From positions 2,283-66,282 of the forward strand of contig JAGBNY010000018.1 in NCBI GenBank assembly GCA_017634175.1: DNA of 64,000 bases, in the 5' to 3' direction. This document shows, in pieces, positions 272-60,996 of this stretch. A model generated the notes under the pieces. That model worked only from the letters and a program-made list of their open reading frames with translations, searched no databases and was not told the DNA's origin. Each line of letters begins with the position of its first letter. The first letter of the stretch is position 1. This DNA is from Lachnospiraceae bacterium (GTDB lineage Bacteria; Bacillota; Clostridia; Lachnospirales; Lachnospiraceae). The position numbers and the translations under genes were made by a program.

Positions 272-290
272 GGCGGTAACGATAGTTACC
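272..290. repeat. Short palindromic repeat GGCGGTAACGATAGTTACC
   Basis: 19/19 identical to 42897-42915; core palindrome GGTAAC-GATA-GTTACC. Confidence 0.7.
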
Positions 291-42736: not shown

Positions 42737-42745
42737 TGTTATACT
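42737..42745 (+). promoter_or_regulatory. Extended -10 promoter element for glyA
   Basis: TG-T-TATACT. Confidence 0.45.
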
Positions 42746-42814
42746 TGGGATATCTTACACAAATGTATAAGCGAAAAGCTTTTGGGGGCTTTCAGCAATT
42801 TTTAGAACCAGCGA

Positions 42815-43008
42815 GTAACTATTCAGAACCCCTTGGAAACAGGCGAGATTAACTGCTCAAGCTTGCTTGAAAGCAGTTAATCTCACCTGTTTCCAGGGCG
42901 GTAACGATAGTTACCGCCCCCCACACCTCGCAAAATTTGATTTCCGATTGCTTAAATCGCTTAAGAAATCAAATTTTGCGAGGTGTGGGTAGGGCTCTGA
43001 ATAGTTAC
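42815..43008. mobile_element. MITE-like non-autonomous element (194 bp)
   Basis: TIRs GTAACTATTCAGAACCC (42815-31) and GGGCTCTGAATAGTTAC (42992-43008), 16/17 match; exact 8-bp flanking repeat ACCAGCGA (42807-14, 43009-16); three internal hairpins; no ORF in the track. Confidence 0.85.
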
Positions 43009-43038
43009 ACCAGCGACTCATAAAGAAATGGAGGGCAT

Positions 43039-44277
43039 ATGTATTCAATTGAAAACGTGAGATCAACCGATCCAGAGATAGCAGACGCAATTGAGGCCGA
43101 GCTTAAGAGGCAGAATAGCCATATAGAACTCATCGCTTCTGAGAACTGGGCCAGCAAGGCTGTCATGGCTGCAATGGGCAGCCCTTTTACGAATAAGTAT
43201 GCGGAAGGGTACCCTGCGCATAGGTACTACGGCGGCTGCGAATGTGTGGATGTTGCTGAGAATCTTGCTATAGAGAGGGCTAAGAAGCTCTTTAATTGCG
43301 ATTATGCAAATGTGCAGCCGCACTCTGGAGCTCAGGCCAATATGGCTGTTTTTTTGAGTATATTGAACCCGGGCGATACTTTCATGGGAATGTCCTTGGA
43401 TCAAGGCGGTCATCTCTCGCATGGCTCACCGGTGAATTTTTCGGGCAAATACTTTAAGTGCGTCTCTTATGGGGTGAACGGGGAAGGCTTCATTGATTAT
43501 GATGAAGTCCAGAGAATCGCTGAAGAGTGCAGGCCGAAGCTCATCGTGGCGGGCGCCTCGGCCTATGCTAGGGCTATCGATTTCAAGAGATTCCGTCAAA
43601 TAGCCGACAGCGTTGGCGCGGTATTGATGGCAGATATAGCCCATATTGCGGGACTTGTAGCTGGTGGCTGTCATGAATCTCCTATTGGGATAGCGGATGT
43701 GGTGACAACCACTACGCACAAGACTCTTAGGGGACCCAGGGGAGGAGTCATCCTGTGCAATAAGGATGCCGCGGATAAGTATAATTTCAACAAGGCGGTG
43801 TTCCCCGGAGTTCAGGGTGGGCCGCTAATGCACGTAATAGCCGCCAAGGCAGTCTGCTTCAAGGAAGCGCTGGATCCATCTTTCAAGACCTATGCTCAGA
43901 ATATTTGCAAGAATGCACAAGCACTGTGCAAGGGTCTCATGAACAGGGGCATTTCTATAGTGTCCAATGGAACGGATAATCATTTGATGCTGATGAACCT
44001 AGTGCCCCAAGGGCTTACCGGGAAAGAGGTAGAGGCTCTTTTGGATAAGGCCAATATCACGGCCAATAAGAACACGATACCAAATGACCCCAAGAGCCCC
44101 TTTGTCACAAGCGGGATCCGCTTAGGAACGCCGGCGGTCACGACCAGGGGCTTCAATGAGGCTGATTGCGATAAGGTGGCAGAGGCTATTTCGCTAGTAG
44201 TACTGAATGGCGAGAGCAAGATTCCTGAAGCCAAGGCCATTGTTTTGGAACTAACTCAAAAATATCCTTTGGAATAA
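43039..44277 (+). CDS. glyA: Serine hydroxymethyltransferase
   Basis: [43 protein letters not shown]. Confidence 0.98.
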
Positions 44278-51208: not shown

Positions 51209-51333
51209 AGGGAGAGAATTATTGCCGTAAACAACGAATTTCGCATAGTTTGAATTAGTTTATTGTTTACAAAATATATAAGAAAATTATAACATGATTT
51301 GGCTATAATTGCAAAACAGGATTGGATCATCAT

Positions 51334-52746
51334 ATGTGGGACTTGGAAAAATTCTCTAACAATATTGCGATAATAGATGAGGCTGGAGAGAAATTGAGTT
51401 ACAAGGATTTGAGCAAAGTATCCAGCTTGCTAGGAGAGGCCGTGGGTGGAAGGTCTCTTTGCTTCATTCTATGTACTAATACAATAGGCTCGATCATTGG
51501 TTATGTGAGCCTTGTTAATAACGGCATTGTTCCGCTGCTGCTTAGCTTTCATATGGAGAGGCTTCTTCTCGATAACTTGATTAATCTATATAAGCCGCAA
51601 TTCATCTATCTTCCATCTTCTGCCAGAGATGAATTTCCGGATTTCCCGGAGATATATTCGGGGCATGGTTATTCTTTGATTGAGCTGGGTTTTTCAAAGG
51701 AGGAGCTCTTTCCTTTGAATGAGAGTCTTGCCCTTCTGCTCACCACGTCTGGCTCTACGGGCAGCCCTAAGTTAGTTAGACAGTCTTACAAAAACATTGC
51801 AAGCAATACTGAGTCCATAATAGAGTACTTGGGAATAAAGGAAGACGAACGAGCAATAACCACCCTTCCGATGAACTATACCTATGGCCTTTCTATAATA
51901 AATACGCATCTCTATGCAGGAGCCACTATTCTTGTGACAGAAAAGGGACTTATGCAAAAAGAATTTTGGGATTTCTTTGAAAGGGAGGGGGCAACATCGT
52001 TTGGCGGGGTTCCGTATACCTACGAGATGCTGAATAAGCTTAAGGTAACTAGGATGAAGCTGCCATCGCTCCGATATATGACTCAGGCAGGCGGAAAGCT
52101 TTCCCCGACTCTTCACGAAACATTCGCAAAATATGCCGAAGATTTAGGGAAGCGCTTCATAGTGATGTATGGCCAATGCGAGGCAACTGCGAGGATGGGA
52201 TATCTTCCTCCTGAAAAGGCCATGGAGAAAAAAGGGTCTATGGGCATAGCCATCCCCGGAGGGAAACTTTGGCTAAGAGGTGAAGATGGGACAGAGATAT
52301 CTGAGCCTTTAGTGGCTGGAGAGCTAATATATGAGGGCCCCAATGTTACCATGGGATATGCCGAAAGCGGAGAAGACCTATCTTTGGGAGATTTACGGGG
52401 AGGAGTCTTGGAAACTGGGGATATAGCAGAGTTTGATCAGGACGGTTTTTTTTATATAGTTGGACGTAAGAAGAGGTTCTTAAAGATTTATGGGAACAGG
52501 GTGAATCTAGATGAAGTAGAGCGGCATATCAGGGAGAGATTCGGGATAGAAGCTGCCTCGGCCGGAGTGGACGACCACCTAAAGATTTTCATAACCGATG
52601 GAAGGGACGGAGAAAAAATAAAAACATATATTTCTGATATCACTAAACTTAATCCTGCAGCATTTGAGATAAGGGTCATATCTGAGATACCAAAGAATGA
52701 GTCAGGAAAGGTACTCTATAGTGTTTTGGAGGGCGAGAACAAATGA
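51334..52746 (+). CDS. AMP-binding acyl-CoA/acyl-ACP ligase
   Basis: TTSGSTGSPK, MYGQCEAT, LETGD, VGRKKRFLKIYGNRV, PKNESGK. Confidence 0.92.
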   Translation: MWDLEKFSNNIAIIDEAGEKLSYKDLSKVSSLLGEAVGGRSLCFILCTNTIGSIIGYVSLVNNGIVPLLLSFHMERLLLDNLINLYKPQFIYLPSSARDEFPDFPEIYSGHGYSLIELGFSKEELFPLNESLALLLTTSGSTGSPKLVRQSYKNIASNTESIIEYLGIKEDERAITTLPMNYTYGLSIINTHLYAGATILVTEKGLMQKEFWDFFEREGATSFGGVPYTYEMLNKLKVTRMKLPSLRYMTQAGGKLSPTLHETFAKYAEDLGKRFIVMYGQCEATARMGYLPPEKAMEKKGSMGIAIPGGKLWLRGEDGTEISEPLVAGELIYEGPNVTMGYAESGEDLSLGDLRGGVLETGDIAEFDQDGFFYIVGRKKRFLKIYGNRVNLDEVERHIRERFGIEAASAGVDDHLKIFITDGRDGEKIKTYISDITKLNPAAFEIRVISEIPKNESGKVLYSVLEGENK

Positions 52747-53831
52747 CATTTGATGAAGCGATGGAATGTAAGCCCTTTTCAATGGACAAAGTGGAGAAGA
52801 AAGCCTTTTTGAACGACAGGCTTATGGAACTTACCAAGAGGCATTATAGAGAGTCTAAAGAATATAGGGATATACTTGATACGCTTGGCTTCGATATAAA
52901 GTCCCAAATAGCGTATGATGAATTGCCTTTTGTTCCTGTCAGGCTTTTCAAAGAGCTATCCTTGAAGTCGGTGCCTGAAGAGAAAATAGTGAAGACAATG
53001 ACATCATCGGGCACTACAGGCCAGGCTGTATCCAGGATTTATTTGGATTCCAGGACTGCGGCAAACCAACAGAAAGTGATGGCCAGGATAGTGTCGGATT
53101 TTCTGGGTCCCGAGAGATGCCCTATGATAATCATAGACTGCCCCTCTGTAACAAAAAATCGGGAAATGTTCTCTGCCAGGGGAGCCGGCATATTGGGGTT
53201 CTCGATTTTTGGACAAAAACGGATTTATGCCTTGAATGATGAGATGGAGCTTGATTTCAATGGGCTGTCCCATTTCCTGGATACATACAGAGGGAAAAAG
53301 ATCCTGCTTTTTGGATTCACTTTCATGATTTGGGAGCATTTTTATAAAAAGCTTTTGAAAAGAGCGGAAGAGGGAGAAAGATTAGATTTATCTAATGGAG
53401 TGCTGATTCATGGAGGGGGCTGGAAGAAGCTTTTGAGCGAGGCGGTGAGCCCCTTGGAATTCAAGGAAAGACTCAATGAGGTCTGTGGCCTGAATGAGGT
53501 ACATGACTATTACGGCATGGTGGAGCAGACTGGATGCATTTATGTCGAGTGCGAATGTGGTCATCTCCATAGCAGCATCTATTCCGATGTGATTGCAAGA
53601 AGACCTTCGGACTTCTCAAAATGCGAATACGGAGAAAAGGGAATCTTACAAGTAATATCAACTATCCCTGAGTCCTATCCAGGACACTCGCTTTTAACGG
53701 AAGATGAGGGGACAGTCTTGGGGGAGGATGACTGCCCCTGTGGAAGGCTGGGTAAATATTTTTCTGTCTCAGGCAGGATAAAAAATGCGGAATTGAGGGG
53801 TTGCAGCGATACCTATGCGGCAAAGTTTTGA
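52743..53831 (+). CDS. LuxE-like acyl-protein synthetase
   Basis: PFVPVRLFK, TSSGTTG, HGGGWKK, DYYGMVE, SYPGHSLLTED, GRIKNAELRGCS. Confidence 0.9.
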   Translation: MTFDEAMECKPFSMDKVEKKAFLNDRLMELTKRHYRESKEYRDILDTLGFDIKSQIAYDELPFVPVRLFKELSLKSVPEEKIVKTMTSSGTTGQAVSRIYLDSRTAANQQKVMARIVSDFLGPERCPMIIIDCPSVTKNREMFSARGAGILGFSIFGQKRIYALNDEMELDFNGLSHFLDTYRGKKILLFGFTFMIWEHFYKKLLKRAEEGERLDLSNGVLIHGGGWKKLLSEAVSPLEFKERLNEVCGLNEVHDYYGMVEQTGCIYVECECGHLHSSIYSDVIARRPSDFSKCEYGEKGILQVISTIPESYPGHSLLTEDEGTVLGEDDCPCGRLGKYFSVSGRIKNAELRGCSDTYAAKF

Positions 53832-55014
53832 GAAGATAAAATTTTTGATTGGCTCGGCGGAAAGCTTGGAGAGGATGGCGGAAGTACCATCTAAGACACC
53901 TTTTGACGATGAAATCTGTGAGTTCCTAAATAGTCTTTCCAAGGCATTGCTCACTAGTCCTAAAAACAGGATGTATCCGGCTGTCACTGCTTTTGGCTTC
54001 TTTTTGAGAAAAGGCTCGATAGGGCTGCTTAAGCAAAGATTCTTGAAGGCGGGAGAATACAGGCTTGGAAGGGGAATGAGCTTCCACATTGCTCCGTCCA
54101 ATGTGCCTGTCAATTTTGCCTATTCATTAGCGGCTGGGCTCTTGGCTGGGAATCCCAACGTGGTCAGAGTACCATCTAAGGAATTCCCGGAAATAGATTT
54201 GATAGCTGAGGCGATGAGGGCTACCTTGGAAGCCTACGAGGGGCTTAAGAACATGATTTCTTTGGTGAGATATGAAAGGGACAGAGAAATCAATGACGAT
54301 TTGTCCGGGCTATGTGCAAATAGGATAATTTGGGGCGGAGACAGCACGATAGAAGAAATAAGGAAATCGCCTTTGGCTCCGAGGGCTAAGGAAATCTGCT
54401 TTGCAGACAGGTATTCATTTGCTGTCATTGATACAAAGGCATATCTTGATATGGATCCTAAAAGAGTGGCAGAGTCCTTTTATAATGACACCTATCTATC
54501 TGATCAAAACGCTTGTTCAAGTCCGAGAGTCATTTGCTGGACTGGGAATGAAGAAGCATATGCGAAGAAGCTTTTTTGGGACAGTCTGCATGAATTCTTG
54601 AAACAAAAGTTTGAATTACAAAGCGTAAAAGCTGTCGATAAGCTGAGTAGCCTATGCCTGGTTGGAGCGAGCTTTCCTGAAGCAAAGCCGCGTTTTGTGG
54701 CAATGCAGGATAATTTGATAACAAGGGTTGAGTTGAAAAAGCTTCCAATGGGTCTTATGCAGAGGCTTGAAAATTCAGGATTCTTCTTTGAGTATAGCTT
54801 TATGGACATCTTAGAATTAAAGACCCTATGTTTGGATAAAAGATGTCAGACTATAGGATATATTGGCGATAAAAGAATGTTCATGCCTCTTCTTGCTTCA
54901 GGTATAGGGGGAGTGGATAGAATAGTCCCTATAGGAAAAACCATGGACTTTGACCTGTATTGGGACGGATATGATTTGATTAATGAACTATCCAGGAATA
55001 TTTCTGTCTCTTGA
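53815..55014 (+). CDS. LuxC-like acyl-CoA reductase
   Basis: GRGMSFHIAPSNVP, IIWGGD, FADRYS, DQNACSSP (catalytic Cys), DRIVPIG, WDG. Confidence 0.9.
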   Translation: MRQSFEKIKFLIGSAESLERMAEVPSKTPFDDEICEFLNSLSKALLTSPKNRMYPAVTAFGFFLRKGSIGLLKQRFLKAGEYRLGRGMSFHIAPSNVPVNFAYSLAAGLLAGNPNVVRVPSKEFPEIDLIAEAMRATLEAYEGLKNMISLVRYERDREINDDLSGLCANRIIWGGDSTIEEIRKSPLAPRAKEICFADRYSFAVIDTKAYLDMDPKRVAESFYNDTYLSDQNACSSPRVICWTGNEEAYAKKLFWDSLHEFLKQKFELQSVKAVDKLSSLCLVGASFPEAKPRFVAMQDNLITRVELKKLPMGLMQRLENSGFFFEYSFMDILELKTLCLDKRCQTIGYIGDKRMFMPLLASGIGGVDRIVPIGKTMDFDLYWDGYDLINELSRNISVS

Positions 55015-57060: not shown

Positions 57061-60000
57061 TTATCTTTTTATTGTGAGATTTCCAGAATAATTATTGAGT
57101 CCCTGTATAGTCACTCCGTTTTGAGAAACGGCGAATATACGATAGTCTCCCCTGGAATTCCTTCGGTTCTGCTTCATACGAATCTTTTTGCCGGTCGAAC
57201 TATTGACATATTTAAGGCCATTAATGACAATATTTCCATTCTTTGCCTTGATTCGGCCATGACGGATGTTCTTGCCGGAAGAAATATCCGCAGGCTCTAT
57301 CTCAAAGAAAAACTTCATATTCTTGAACGTAGACTTTGCAAGCTCTCCTTCTGCCTTTGGAAAGACTAGGCTGAAATAAGGCCTTCTCTTAGCGTCAGTA
57401 CCATAATACACGTTTTTATTGTTATGGAACTTGACCTTATAATTGTACATATCAATTCCATCAGCAGATACAAGGATATTCATATCCTTATTGTATTTTT
57501 TAGAAGATTTTTTGCTGCCGACATTCACATGCGGTCTGCCATCATAAGAGACAGTCGGTGTATAGAAGACCTCATAACGTACCCCGGATACTGAAACGGT
57601 GTACTTAGTATAGTTCTTGTAGGGGTCGACAGCTCCATTGCCGCTCGCTGTGTTGCTGCTTGCAGAGTTACCGCTTGTGGAATTTCCGCTCGCAGAGTTA
57701 TTGCTGGGACTCTTTGTGTCATTGTCTTTTTCTTTGTCGGATGTCTTATCCTTATCCGAAGTATCCTCTTTTGGAGTCTCAGGCTCTTCTGGAGCAGGCT
57801 TTGGGTCGCTTTCATCCTTTGGCTCATACTTATTGGCAGAAGGACTTGGGTTCACTATTGGTGGATCCGGATCTGCCCAAGGAGTCGTATTATGAGAAGG
57901 AGAAGGCGGATTCGGGTCATCCAAGGGCGGATCTTCTGTTGGAGGATCTTCCTTTGGAGGAATCTCAGTTGGAGGGCTAGGATTCTTATCCGCCGGATCC
58001 GCGTCTGAAGAGGTATCCCGCTTAGCCCTGAAGGCGCAAGTTATCGTGTGGTCTCTTACCACGGGATCGAACACGTAATTAGCAGAGGGAGGCACTACGC
58101 TTATTCCATCCACGCTTACATAAGCAATCTGATAGCCCTCATTGGGAATAATCCTGAAAGACGGGGTATCATTATGCGTGATAACAAGGTTGCCGGATGG
58201 CACGATCCTGCCATTTGCGTCCTGTGCTTCAGCAATAATATGATGATTCACGTCCGGAGTGGTGCTGTCATAATGCCAAGCCACGTGGAATAGGGGCTCG
58301 TTATGATAGTCAATGGAGATAAGCTCGTAATCCTCCTGGCTCCCTTCATAATAGAGCATCTGGATTCCGTCATCGCCATTAAACGCCGCAAAATCGAAAT
58401 TTTTCACCGTATCAGGGAGCCTTAGCACCTGCATACTGGAGCAATTAGCTAAAGAATTCTTGGAAAGTGCAGTAATTCCCTTTGGCACAGTGAAGCTCTC
58501 AAGATAGGAGCAGCCATAAAAGGCACTTTCAGGTATAAGGGTAAGTTTTTCGGACTCAATATCCGCTTCACTCAAGGATATGCACTCCATAAATGAGCCT
58601 TTGCCGAGCCTTGCCACATTTGATGAGAGCGTGACTCGGGGCAGGCTCGCGCACTCTGCAAAGGCATAGTCCCCAATCTCTGTGAGGCCTGATGGCAGAG
58701 AAATGCTATTTAGCGCAGGGCAGGCAAAGAAGCAATACTCAGGAATCTCTTTAAGAGCCGATGGCAGGGTGACATCACTCAGCGCATTGCATTTCATGAA
58801 GGCATAGCGTCCGATCTTAGTCACGCTATTGGGAATCGAAAGTGCCATAAGGTTCTGGTTGGAAGCAAAGGCATAGTCTGAAATCGTAGTGACTTCTTCC
58901 GGAATACTGTATTCTTCAATCTGGCTGTCTGCGGGAAAAGCGTAGAGAGTGCTCATATCAGAGCTAAATAATACGCCGTCTTGAGTCACAAAATCATAAT
59001 TTCCGCTGCCTATTGAAAAACTCTTGATTTTATAATAAGTGTCGATGCTTTCCTTTGTATTTATTTTCTCTAGGGAAAGGGGAAGCTTTAAGTCCATCCC
59101 GCCTCTCGCGGTAGAGTTGATGGAGCTTAGGCAGAGCTCCTCTACGCTGTCTGGTATTTCCAACTCAGTAAGATTTACATCGAATGCGTTGTCGCCTATT
59201 TTCAATAGGCCATCAGGCATACTTAAACTGTCCAAAGAATGGGGTAAATATATGCCCGAACCTATCCTGTGCGAAAGATTCTGAAAGGCACTGTCGCCAA
59301 TCTCTTCAACACCGACAGGAAGCTCAAGGGACTCTAAGTCCGCTCCATAGAAGGCATAATCGTCTATGAGCTTAACGCTATCTGGAATCTCGACTGAAGT
59401 AATGCTGCTATAATAGAAAGCATGGTCAGGAATTACCTCGATAGAGTCCGGGATGACAACCCTGGTCAGTTCTTCGGTATAACTGAAACAATAAGGGTAG
59501 ATTTCTTTCACGGTAGCGGGAATCTTGTAAACTCCTGATCCATCTCCCGAGGCGGTGCTTATGCAGGAGAAGAGCTTGGTCTTGTCCTTATTTAAAACAG
59601 CCCCATTTTCAAAGATGAGGCTATCGTCTGAAGGAGAAGAAGCTCCTACAGGCTCACTGCTTACGAGGCCGATATCAGGAGTGGTATCAAAGTCAGCAAT
59701 AGAGTCTATAACAGGACTTTCAATGATGCCTGCGCCTTCAACACTCCCAGGGGAAACAGTGGCAGAAGGATCGGAAACGCTGGGGGGAGAAACTGTGTCA
59801 GGGCTCGATACACTATTGTTGCTAGGTTCTGAAAACTCAATGCGCTCTAACGTGCTGCATTTATTGAAAACACCATGTCCCAAGGTCTTTAGGTGAGATG
59901 GAATGGACAATTGGCTGATTGAAATGCAATCTTCAAAAGCATTGTCACTTATTGTCCGAAGAGCGTTGCTCATGCTGACGCTGGTGAGAGCGGAGCAGCC

Positions 60001-60996
60001 CGAAAAAGCGGACTCGCCAATAGACAGAATGGCATCGCCGGCGGCATCGAAGCTCTCTAAAGAAGAGCAGCCGCTGAAAGCCTCGTCCGCCACATAGGTC
60101 ATATTTTCAGGCATGACGAATTCCCTTATGCCGGTATTCCGAAAGGCTCCCCTTTCAATTTTCTCCATGGACTTAGTTTTTTGATCCGGGTGATTCTCCT
60201 GAAAAGTTACGGTACGAAGCATGGTACAGCCATCGAAAGCATATTCACCTATTGTGCTCATGGCAGGCCTCAGAGTCACGCTGGTCAACATTGTGCAATT
60301 TTGGAAGGCGAAAGGAGAGATCTCGGCCACAGTCTCTGGAAGATCGAATGACCCGTCAATTGTGGGGAAAGCGTAGATCAGCTTATGTTTGGAACTGTCC
60401 AATAGGGCCTTCCCATTATCCATGAACCATTCATTGTTCGAATCGACTGTTATGGACTCGATATTGTGGTTTCCCTCGAAGGTGTATTCATCGAGTGAAG
60501 TAAGGGACTCTGGAAATATCAAGGATTCAATCTTCAAGCCTGAAAAGGCCCTTGCGCCTATGGATCTGAGATTGCCCGGCAGCTTTAAGGCGACTTCCAC
60601 AGGCTCAATGGAGGAATCGGAAAAAGAAAAGGCATCATTGCCTATGCGGGTGAGCTTGGACGAAAGCCGAATCTCCTTTATATCCTGAAGATAGGGCTCC
60701 CAAGGAGCCATAGACCCATTCCTTGGATAATCATACATTTCCCCGCTCCCAGTTATCTCTAGTGTAAGGTCTCCCTCGGAGCCCCTTATTTCCCAATGCA
60801 GATTGCTCCCGCAATCTCCCCTATTATAGACACGGGAAACTATTGACTCCTCCTCATCCTCCCCAACCTCTAAGAGTTTGGTATAGACGGTATCTTTGGC
60901 ATAGACGCCGGCCATCGCTCCTTCCATGAAGACCATGGAAGTCATGATAATGACTAAAAACTTTGCGAGTCTGATTTTTTGTATATTTTTCCTCAT
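57061..60996 (-). CDS. BspA/TpLRR (LRR_5) surface protein with Pro-rich and SGN-repeat linkers
   Basis: Signal peptide (VYA); many LxxIxxxAFxxCxxL repeats; GDCGSNLHW cap; Pro-rich stalk; basic C-terminal domain; no LPxTG. Confidence 0.9.
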   Translation of the reverse strand: MRKNIQKIRLAKFLVIIMTSMVFMEGAMAGVYAKDTVYTKLLEVGEDEEESIVSRVYNRGDCGSNLHWEIRGSEGDLTLEITGSGEMYDYPRNGSMAPWEPYLQDIKEIRLSSKLTRIGNDAFSFSDSSIEPVEVALKLPGNLRSIGARAFSGLKIESLIFPESLTSLDEYTFEGNHNIESITVDSNNEWFMDNGKALLDSSKHKLIYAFPTIDGSFDLPETVAEISPFAFQNCTMLTSVTLRPAMSTIGEYAFDGCTMLRTVTFQENHPDQKTKSMEKIERGAFRNTGIREFVMPENMTYVADEAFSGCSSLESFDAAGDAILSIGESAFSGCSALTSVSMSNALRTISDNAFEDCISISQLSIPSHLKTLGHGVFNKCSTLERIEFSEPSNNSVSSPDTVSPPSVSDPSATVSPGSVEGAGIIESPVIDSIADFDTTPDIGLVSSEPVGASSPSDDSLIFENGAVLNKDKTKLFSCISTASGDGSGVYKIPATVKEIYPYCFSYTEELTRVVIPDSIEVIPDHAFYYSSITSVEIPDSVKLIDDYAFYGADLESLELPVGVEEIGDSAFQNLSHRIGSGIYLPHSLDSLSMPDGLLKIGDNAFDVNLTELEIPDSVEELCLSSINSTARGGMDLKLPLSLEKINTKESIDTYYKIKSFSIGSGNYDFVTQDGVLFSSDMSTLYAFPADSQIEEYSIPEEVTTISDYAFASNQNLMALSIPNSVTKIGRYAFMKCNALSDVTLPSALKEIPEYCFFACPALNSISLPSGLTEIGDYAFAECASLPRVTLSSNVARLGKGSFMECISLSEADIESEKLTLIPESAFYGCSYLESFTVPKGITALSKNSLANCSSMQVLRLPDTVKNFDFAAFNGDDGIQMLYYEGSQEDYELISIDYHNEPLFHVAWHYDSTTPDVNHHIIAEAQDANGRIVPSGNLVITHNDTPSFRIIPNEGYQIAYVSVDGISVVPPSANYVFDPVVRDHTITCAFRAKRDTSSDADPADKNPSPPTEIPPKEDPPTEDPPLDDPNPPSPSHNTTPWADPDPPIVNPSPSANKYEPKDESDPKPAPEEPETPKEDTSDKDKTSDKEKDNDTKSPSNNSASGNSTSGNSASSNTASGNGAVDPYKNYTKYTVSVSGVRYEVFYTPTVSYDGRPHVNVGSKKSSKKYNKDMNILVSADGIDMYNYKVKFHNNKNVYYGTDAKRRPYFSLVFPKAEGELAKSTFKNMKFFFEIEPADISSGKNIRHGRIKAKNGNIVINGLKYVNSSTGKKIRMKQNRRNSRGDYRIFAVSQNGVTIQGLNNYSGNLTIKR

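What the first reader, a model, noticed from the sequence alone, without database searches (positions are those of the whole stretch)
42807..43016. Highly structured 194-bp MITE-like element with exact 8-bp target duplication in the glyA leader
Seen: ACCAGCGA | TIR GTAACTATTCAGAACCC | hairpin A (42831-57 / 42872-98, 25/27) | hairpin B GGGCGGTAAC-GATA-GTTACCGCCC (42896-919) | hairpin C (42920-44 / 42965-89, 25/25) | TIR GGGCTCTGAATAGTTAC | ACCAGCGA. Nearly the whole element folds into a three-armed structure closed by the TIRs, and hairpin B looks like the two termini fused (GTAAC..ATAGTTAC). It lies between a putative promoter (42737-45) and the glyA SD, 30 nt from the ATG. No transposase is in the window. 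Inference: a modular non-autonomous mobile element, inserted recently enough to keep its duplication, that could alter glyA/ABC operon expression. I cannot assign it to a named IS family.
Basis: partly seen in the sequence, partly recalled or inferred. Interest (0 to 1): 0.8.

Follow-up and report, generated by a model that had tools for sequence, protein, structure and literature searches.

The report
IS66 mini-transposon carrying orphan RNA fold
This is one of dozens of scattered copies and fragments of a small gene-less jumping element in a gut bacterium; its ends and 8-base target duplication match IS66-family insertion sequences, whose transposase likely moves it, its folded middle is likely a worn relative of the orphan Clostridiales-1 RNA, and its place in front of glyA is likely accidental.

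Summary
The anatomy is exact. It is a MITE: 58 loci in the genome carry an end, and 5 of 14 paired copies have different perfect 8-bp duplications. The family can be named. The same ends and 8-bp duplications bound 1.5-2.0 kb single-ORF IS66 elements, like ISDge4 of the ISBst12 group. No such transposase is in this 75%-complete assembly. It is no glyA leader: 0 of 19 relatives have it there. Two sister copies match Rfam Clostridiales-1 (48.1 and 41.3 bits, cut-off 48); the window copy does not. Shorter copies end at hairpin B with their own duplication (8 of 20). Deletion between 8-nt repeats explains this better than a working internal end, because B lacks the TCAG kept in 27-29 of 30 real ends. 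No empty site was seen in 8 runs. This scan reported IS66/ISBst12-type MITEs, once with Clostridiales-1, on other DNA before. Ordinary class, unusual interior.

The parts
42807..42814 (.). left copy of the 8-bp target-site duplication
42815..42831 (+). left terminal inverted repeat; first 12 bp are the conserved IS66/ISBst12-type end
42827..42996 (+). interior four-way junction, equivalent to the stretch that matches Rfam Clostridiales-1 in sister copy C8 (this copy itself has no hit)
42831..42898 (+). hairpin A; CTTG loop at 42862-65 with a 2-nt 3' bulge; stem turns over between lineages with compensation
42896..42919 (+). hairpin B, GATA loop; 42907-14 repeats the last 8 nt of the right TIR, 42901-08 repeats the first 8 nt of the left TIR at 7/8
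42920..42989 (+). hairpin C; here a perfect palindrome where other copies keep a tandem G.A internal loop
42992..43008 (-). right terminal inverted repeat
43009..43016 (.). right copy of the 8-bp target-site duplication
42737..42745 (+). candidate extended -10 box for glyA (inferred; similar boxes precede glyA in several relatives)
43030..43034 (+). Shine-Dalgarno of glyA, outside the element
43039..44277 (+). glyA, serine hydroxymethyltransferase, followed by ABC transporter genes
272..289 (+). orphan remnant of hairpin B of the same family, no end nearby

Best explanation
It is a 194-bp gene-less element with the ends and 8-bp target duplication of single-ORF IS66 (ISBst12-type) insertion sequences, likely moved in trans by such a transposase, and its interior is likely a captured, shortened Clostridiales-1-type four-way fold. 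Shown: ends, duplications, many copies, shared ends with full elements, Rfam match of two sisters. Inferred: the DDE transposase binds the two 12-bp ends and an 8-bp staggered cut at the target makes the duplication. Inferred: after insertion copies decay without host selection; template switching re-perfects the stems (G.A mismatches become Watson-Crick pairs), and RecA-independent deletion between the 8-nt repeats that flank arm A or arm C leaves half copies inside the old duplication. Inferred: the copy before glyA is a tolerated passenger in the 5' leader.
For: Copies: 78 end matches at <=2 of 16 mismatches against 0-2 in 3 shuffles; 58 loci on 45 contigs. Duplications: 5 of 14 paired copies of 120-400 bp at 8/8 and 3 more at 7/8, all different. 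Partner: in G020 the last 44 codons of an IS66 transposase run into an end identical over 22 bp to that of copy C65; full proteins carry PF03050 + PF20042; 27 TSD-defined elements among 113 loci with a near-full gene, L084 matching the window's left end at 19 of 20. ISDge4 has the same end type, one ORF and an 8-bp repeat (PMC12898284, passages). Interior: C8 48.1 bits, C41 41.3 bits on RF01699, whole model, same strand. Decay: within subfamilies 18 broken and 14 G.T variant pairs against 4 compensated, with 14 G.T against 12 A.C, so no strand bias (A.C tally by hand). Deletion: repeats at both arms, hybrid junctions in C109 and C90, deletion halves with true ends in G049; a palindrome between repeats raises deletion in E. 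coli (PMC7145654, passages; far longer repeats than here).
Against: No IS66 transposase in the genome (75% complete), and no full-length close one in 47 genus genomes: only two C-terminal fragments and full genes at 23-30% identity. No empty allele in 8 runs, with patchy cover. The window copy has no RF01699 hit at E <= 10; only 2 of 17 small loci scanned hit, one only at the cut-off, and miRNA models give up to 41.6 bits on the same hairpins. My own model of arms A+B does not score the true RF01699 hit at C58. Most C-arm halves carry a flipped B loop that plain deletion does not give.
Confidence: 0.8

Rival explanations
1. Hairpin B is a working internal transposon end, so either half can jump alone.
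For: 8 of 20 'half' rows have a 7-8/8 duplication exactly at the B tip; 0 of 1020 offset controls reach 7. In G003, 3 of 4 B-terminated copies with a left end do too. Every such half shows the orientation with the 8-nt end mimic, or a hybrid. Half C51 keeps two B-specific changes shared with full copy C58 up to the tip. No full copy with a flipped loop among 13 in G000.
Against: Positions 9-12 (TCAG) are kept in 27-29 of 30 distinct TSD-defined ends, per position; the B tip has four other letters there. Deletion between the 8-nt repeats keeps the old duplication without any transposase. Halves are polyphyletic: C18 is sister to unflipped C79, so no amplified half lineage is shown. Chimera C42 shows that modules are shuffled by recombination.
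Confidence: 0.25
2. The likeness to Clostridiales-1 is convergence: palindromes grown and repaired by template switching end up with the same stable loops, and the fold has no history or role of its own.
For: 15 of 17 small loci scanned, the window copy among them, have no RF01699 listing. Generic hairpin models reach 41.6 bits. True RF01699 copies in G041 have no IS66 ends or duplications (0 of 16).
Against: The match covers the whole model with the GCUUGC loop, its 3' bulge and the GAG/CG-AG internal loop of stem 3 in the right order and on one strand. The hits are copies that keep the non-palindromic G.A motif, which is present in all three genomes; palindrome repair would erase it, not make it.
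Confidence: 0.25
3. It is a conserved cis-regulatory RNA of glyA or of the ABC operon.
For: It lies between a candidate -10 box and the SD, and both junctions recur in runs of two studies.
Against: 0 of 19 relatives (17 same genus, among them G003 that carries the family) have it before glyA. Copies sit in every gene context: 13 between co-directional genes, 5 convergent, 4 divergent, 2 touching an ORF call, 1 unclear, of 25. No terminator. No cis-regulatory Rfam family near its cut-off.
Confidence: 0.04
4. It is a REP-like element spread by an HUH (Y1/RAYT) nuclease.
For: Stacked hairpins with short conserved loops; free-standing Clostridiales-1 copies lack duplications.
Against: 8-bp duplications and ends shared with DDE elements; no PF01797 in the assembly (75% complete). 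That HUH enzymes make no duplication is recalled knowledge.
Confidence: 0.04

Closest known systems
IS66 family, single-ORF ISBst12 group (ISDge4; PMC12898284, passages)
   Same: End type (12-bp core, 10 of 12 to one ISDge4 end), 8-bp duplication; the full elements found here have one 480-500 aa PF03050 + PF20042 gene.
   Different: No gene; 194 bp; the interior has no similarity to the interiors of the 132 loci searched. The subgroup label rests on anatomy and this paper, not on an ISfinder comparison.
Bacterial MITEs such as MITEAba12 (PMC6382973, passages) and MITEPsy1 (PMC3189936, passages)
   Same: Short, non-coding, ends and duplication length shared with an IS, many copies, part of them with intact duplications.
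   Different: Other IS family; there the partner IS is co-resident and movement was seen, here neither is shown; interior folds into a four-way junction with covarying stems.
Clostridiales-1 RNA motif, Rfam RF01699 (PMC2864571, table row and supplement hits)
   Same: Closing stem plus three hairpins, GCUUGC first loop with 3' bulge, GAUA second loop in the consensus, G.A internal loops; sister C8 reaches the cut-off.
   Different: Second stem lacks about 33 model positions, third is longer; the closing stem is the inner TIR; free-standing members in G041 have no IS66 ends or duplications; the window copy is not detected.

Membership tests
MITE | short, TIR-bounded, no transposase gene | tested here: met
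   194 bp, 16/17 TIR, longest stop-free frame 57 codons
MITE | many copies with different target duplications | tested here: met
   58 loci; 5 of 14 paired copies 8/8, 3 more 7/8
MITE | ends shared with an autonomous IS | tested here: met
MITE | co-resident cognate transposase | tested here: inconclusive
   none in a 75%-complete assembly
MITE | empty-site allele | tested here: inconclusive
   no skipping joint in 8 runs; no contig covers both flanks; other species too diverged
IS66, ISBst12 group | end sequence of the ISDge4 type | tested here: met
IS66, ISBst12 group | 8-bp target duplication | tested here: met
IS66, ISBst12 group | single PF03050 transposase ORF | tested here: not met
   absent from the element, so it is a derivative and not an IS; present in the elements with the same ends
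IS66, ISBst12 group | moved by such a transposase in trans | not testable with these tools
   needs a transposition assay
Clostridiales-1 RNA (RF01699) | score at or above the 48-bit cut-off | tested here: not met
   window copy not listed at E <= 10; sister C8 48.1, C41 41.3
Clostridiales-1 RNA (RF01699) | four-way junction with GCUUGC and GAUA loops | tested here: met
Clostridiales-1 RNA (RF01699) | full-length second stem and G.A internal loops | tested here: not met
   33 positions missing; G.A loops paired out in the window copy
Clostridiales-1 RNA (RF01699) | expressed as an RNA | not testable with these tools
   no RNA run was available to lay
cis-regulatory glyA leader | conserved before glyA orthologs | tested here: not met
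   0 of 19 relatives
REP/RAYT | Y1 (PF01797) nuclease in the genome | tested here: inconclusive
   none in a 75%-complete assembly

The most novel reading that the evidence does not exclude
Clostridiales-1 is not a host RNA but a selfish single-stranded fold that was captured between IS66 ends and is read during mobilisation. The CTTG tip, its bulge and the 100-101 nt spacing of arm A are kept across four lineages whose stems differ at nearly half their pairs (12 of 12 differing pairs compensated between A1 and A2), while inserted copies decay. In this lineage hairpin B has also turned into a second usable end that lets either half jump alone.
Probability: 0.2. Interest if true: 0.7.

Novelty: new variant of a known kind. 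Interest (0 to 1): 0.4.

Why it matters
As a MITE it is ordinary. Two things lift it a little. First, it gives small substrates for the ISBst12 group, whose active transposition was reported only recently (PMC12898284, passages), and natural end variants, including the B tip, to map what the transposase needs. Second, it ties an orphan Rfam 'sRNA' to mobile DNA and shows it wearing away step by step (G.A loops paired out, stem 2 shortened). This warns that covariation in multicopy intergenic motifs can come from repeat dynamics, and makes the role of Clostridiales-1 testable in a transposition assay.

Tried and rejected
Rfam on the window copy: no family near its cut-off, only generic hairpin hits. 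Plasmid and phage collections: no match. IS66 and Y1 transposase in the own assembly: none. Empty site: relatives' intergenic DNA too diverged; no skipping joint in 8 of the 20 runs listed; uncovered parts prove nothing. No RNA holder listed. Promoter-homing lead (e1-9996243): 0 -10-like boxes at +60 to +69 among 23 sites, simple motif scan; one site (C105:29064) had wrong coordinates. SD occlusion: predicted unpaired probabilities 0.12-0.44 with and 0.21-0.41 without the element. Model R1 (arms A+B) found nothing outside the genus in 140 other genomes (1 hit, G041; strict filters) and did not score the true RF01699 copy at C58. Fused-termini origin of B: rejected as less likely (G049, G041 forms). 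Literature: searches listed no paper whose title or abstract start describes an IS66-derived MITE or links Clostridiales-1 to mobile DNA; I saw listings only, the library lacks most subscription journals, two wanted IS papers were not held, ISfinder was not available, and the supplementary discussion of Clostridiales-1 in PMC2864571 was not found in the files searched.

Full report
OBSERVATION. The element spans window 42815-43008 between two copies of an 8-mer. TIRs pair 16/17, arm A 25/27, B 10/10, C 25/25. The fold is a closed three-armed junction at -128.4 kcal/mol, z = -20 against 200 shuffles; both strands fold about equally, as RNA or DNA. It lies between a divergent PAP2-like gene and glyA. 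None of the 52 ORFs of 100 aa or more in the window is a transposase by the families scanned.

IT IS A DISPERSED REPEAT THAT DUPLICATES 8 BP. The 16-nt end occurs 78 times at <=2 mismatches in the 1.71-Mb assembly, against 0-2 in three shuffles, at 58 loci on 45 contigs. Of 25 end pairs, 14 span 120-400 bp; 5 of these have an 8/8 duplication, 3 have 7/8, and one more is 8/8 after a one-base shift. The 7 shorter pairs and 4 long chance pairs have none at 7 or more. Of 25 copies, 23 lie outside my crude ORF calls, in all gene contexts. The end motif is found in 26 of 47 genus genomes. The three-armed form is narrower: G000 and G003 carry the palindromic B (2 of 47), G049 and one copy in G041 a variant (which also lists a weaker G022 match). 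glyA leaders of 19 relatives lack it. The window copy is 92% identical to its nearest siblings. Its left junction is bridged in runs X1 and X2 (one study) and its right junction in X8 (another study); no empty allele was seen in 8 runs, none of which covers both flanks. So it is a standing insertion, not a one-off.

THE ENDS ARE IS66 ENDS. A locus in G020 has the last 44 codons of a transposase running into the same end. That piece is 95% identical to P0002, 484 aa, PF03050 + PF20042. Of 132 loci fetched with P0002, 113 hold a near-full gene, and 27 elements of 1.5-2.0 kb could be defined by an exact 8-bp duplication alone (one left end is probably spurious and some rows are the same element). 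L084 matches the window's left end at 19 of 20. ISDge4, placed in the ISBst12 group, has one ORF, an 8-bp repeat and ends of this type (PMC12898284, passages); IS66 members in Paracoccus also make 8-bp repeats (PMC3281130, table passage). Against: no such gene in G000 (75% complete), and in 47 genus genomes only two close C-terminal fragments and distant full genes. The mover is therefore inferred from shared ends, as was done for MITEAba12 (PMC6382973, passages) and MITEPsy1 (PMC3189936, passages).

THE INTERIOR. Its consensus is a closing stem with three hairpins, a GCUUGC first loop and a GAUA second loop. The window copy is not listed even at E <= 10. Sister C8, 91% identical, scores 48.1 bits over the whole model (cut-off 48) and C41 41.3 bits, on the A-B-C strand, from element position 13 inward. 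That is 2 of 17 small loci; generic miRNA models reach 41.6 bits on these hairpins, so the score alone is not strong. The detail is more telling: arm A fits stem 1 with loop and bulge, B is stem 2 minus 33 positions, and arm C carries the GAG/CG-AG internal loop. Both hits keep that G.A motif; it occurs in G000, G003 and G049, while the window copy and several others have it paired out. In G049 and G041 hairpin B also has tandem G.A pairs under the GATA loop. Free-standing Clostridiales-1 copies, 16 over the cut-off in G041, have no IS66 ends and no duplications. I read this as one capture of such a fold between IS66 ends, followed by wear. The source paper lists the motif as a probable RNA, not cis-regulatory (PMC2864571, table row).

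COVARIATION. Arm A differs among four lineages (A1 and A2 in G000, G003, G049) but stays paired: 22 of 29 pairs change on both sides, 95% of cells pair, above all 500 shuffles and all slid controls (related rows inflate this). Between A1 and A2, 12 of 12 differing pairs are compensated while the 15-nt tip is identical; within them, distinct variant pairs are 18 broken, 14 G.T and 4 compensated, and G.T does not exceed A.C (14 against 12, by hand). So inserted copies decay without strand-specific selection, while lineages that spread have clean stems. Template switching can copy a change to the other arm with no selection at all. The kept loop, bulge and length are the only hint that the fold is read by something.

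HALF COPIES. Twenty rows have an end and a B tip with no second end beyond; 4 have an 8/8 and 4 a 7/8 duplication exactly at the tip, against 0 of 1020 offset controls at 7 or more (4 of the 20 run on past the tip). G003 repeats this in 3 of 4. I first read this as a working internal end, then found a simpler cause. B repeats the last 8 nt of the right TIR and, at 7/8, the first 8 nt of the left one, so deletion across a hairpin leaves a half inside the old duplication. C109 and C90 show the expected hybrid junction, a 14-bp remnant at C47 sits inside an 8-bp duplication (read by eye), and G049, whose B lacks the mimic, makes halves with true ends. A palindrome between direct repeats raises RecA-independent deletion in E. 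coli (PMC7145654, passages). The B tip lacks the TCAG kept in 27-29 of 30 real ends. Left unexplained: most C-arm halves have the B loop flipped, in several lineages, and no flipped full copy was seen among 13; chimera C42 shows that modules do recombine. I give deletion with template switching about 0.65 and a working internal end about 0.25.

EFFECT ON glyA. If the candidate -10 box is used, the mRNA carries the fold in its leader. No terminator is predicted and SD accessibility hardly changes. An effect on mRNA stability is possible and untested.

VERDICT. A real MITE of IS66/ISBst12 type with a Clostridiales-1-like interior. It works like other MITEs; it is not an IS, and the window copy is not a formal RF01699 member. 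My searches (listings only) showed no description in print, but coverage is partial. This scan noted the class on other DNA several times. New variant of a known kind; interest 0.4.

Noticed in passing
G000:C68:3397-3593, C101:9028-9208, C28:7362-7554, C4:12265-12457, C72:8235-8428: A second MITE family of 181-197 bp with other ends and AT-rich 8-bp duplications (8/8 in 3 of these 5, 7/8 in 2). It is nested in arm C of two family-1 copies with the same duplicated 8-mer, and fragments sit in C86, C67 and C2, which suggests a target preference. Its IS family was not determined.
   Followed up: partly
L279, L284, L289, L292, L293, L294, L297, L304 (G042, G056, G005): A 146-bp family (209 bp with an insert) with IS66-type ends, 7-8/8 duplications and a different interior.
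   Followed up: no
L330:1500-1750 (G041:C16): A single copy of the A+B core with a fourth stem sequence and no clear IS66 end, just before what looks like an FMN-riboswitch leader and a transporter gene (recognised by eye, not tested).
   Followed up: partly
L374-L390 (G041): 16 Clostridiales-1 copies over the cut-off in one genome, each with different stem sequences, no duplications, some followed by partial tandem copies: a dispersed repeat with an unknown way of spreading.
   Followed up: partly
G000:C58:9857-10026 (L270): One free-standing Clostridiales-1 match in the own genome, 57.1 bits.
   Followed up: partly
G003 copies L236, L238, L239, L242: Arm C grows by nested small palindromes inserted into the stem, up to 313 bp.
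   Followed up: no
window 272-289: Orphan hairpin-B remnant 13 nt before the ORF at 303, with no end or duplication nearby.
   Followed up: partly
L085-L106, L118: One named complete genome holds many 1.8-kb copies of the full IS with fresh 8-bp duplications, a good source of an active transposase.
   Followed up: no
window 51322-55014: AMP-binding, LuxE and LuxC genes in a row.
   Followed up: no
window 57061-60996 (-): 1311-aa BspA-type leucine-rich repeat protein.
   Followed up: no
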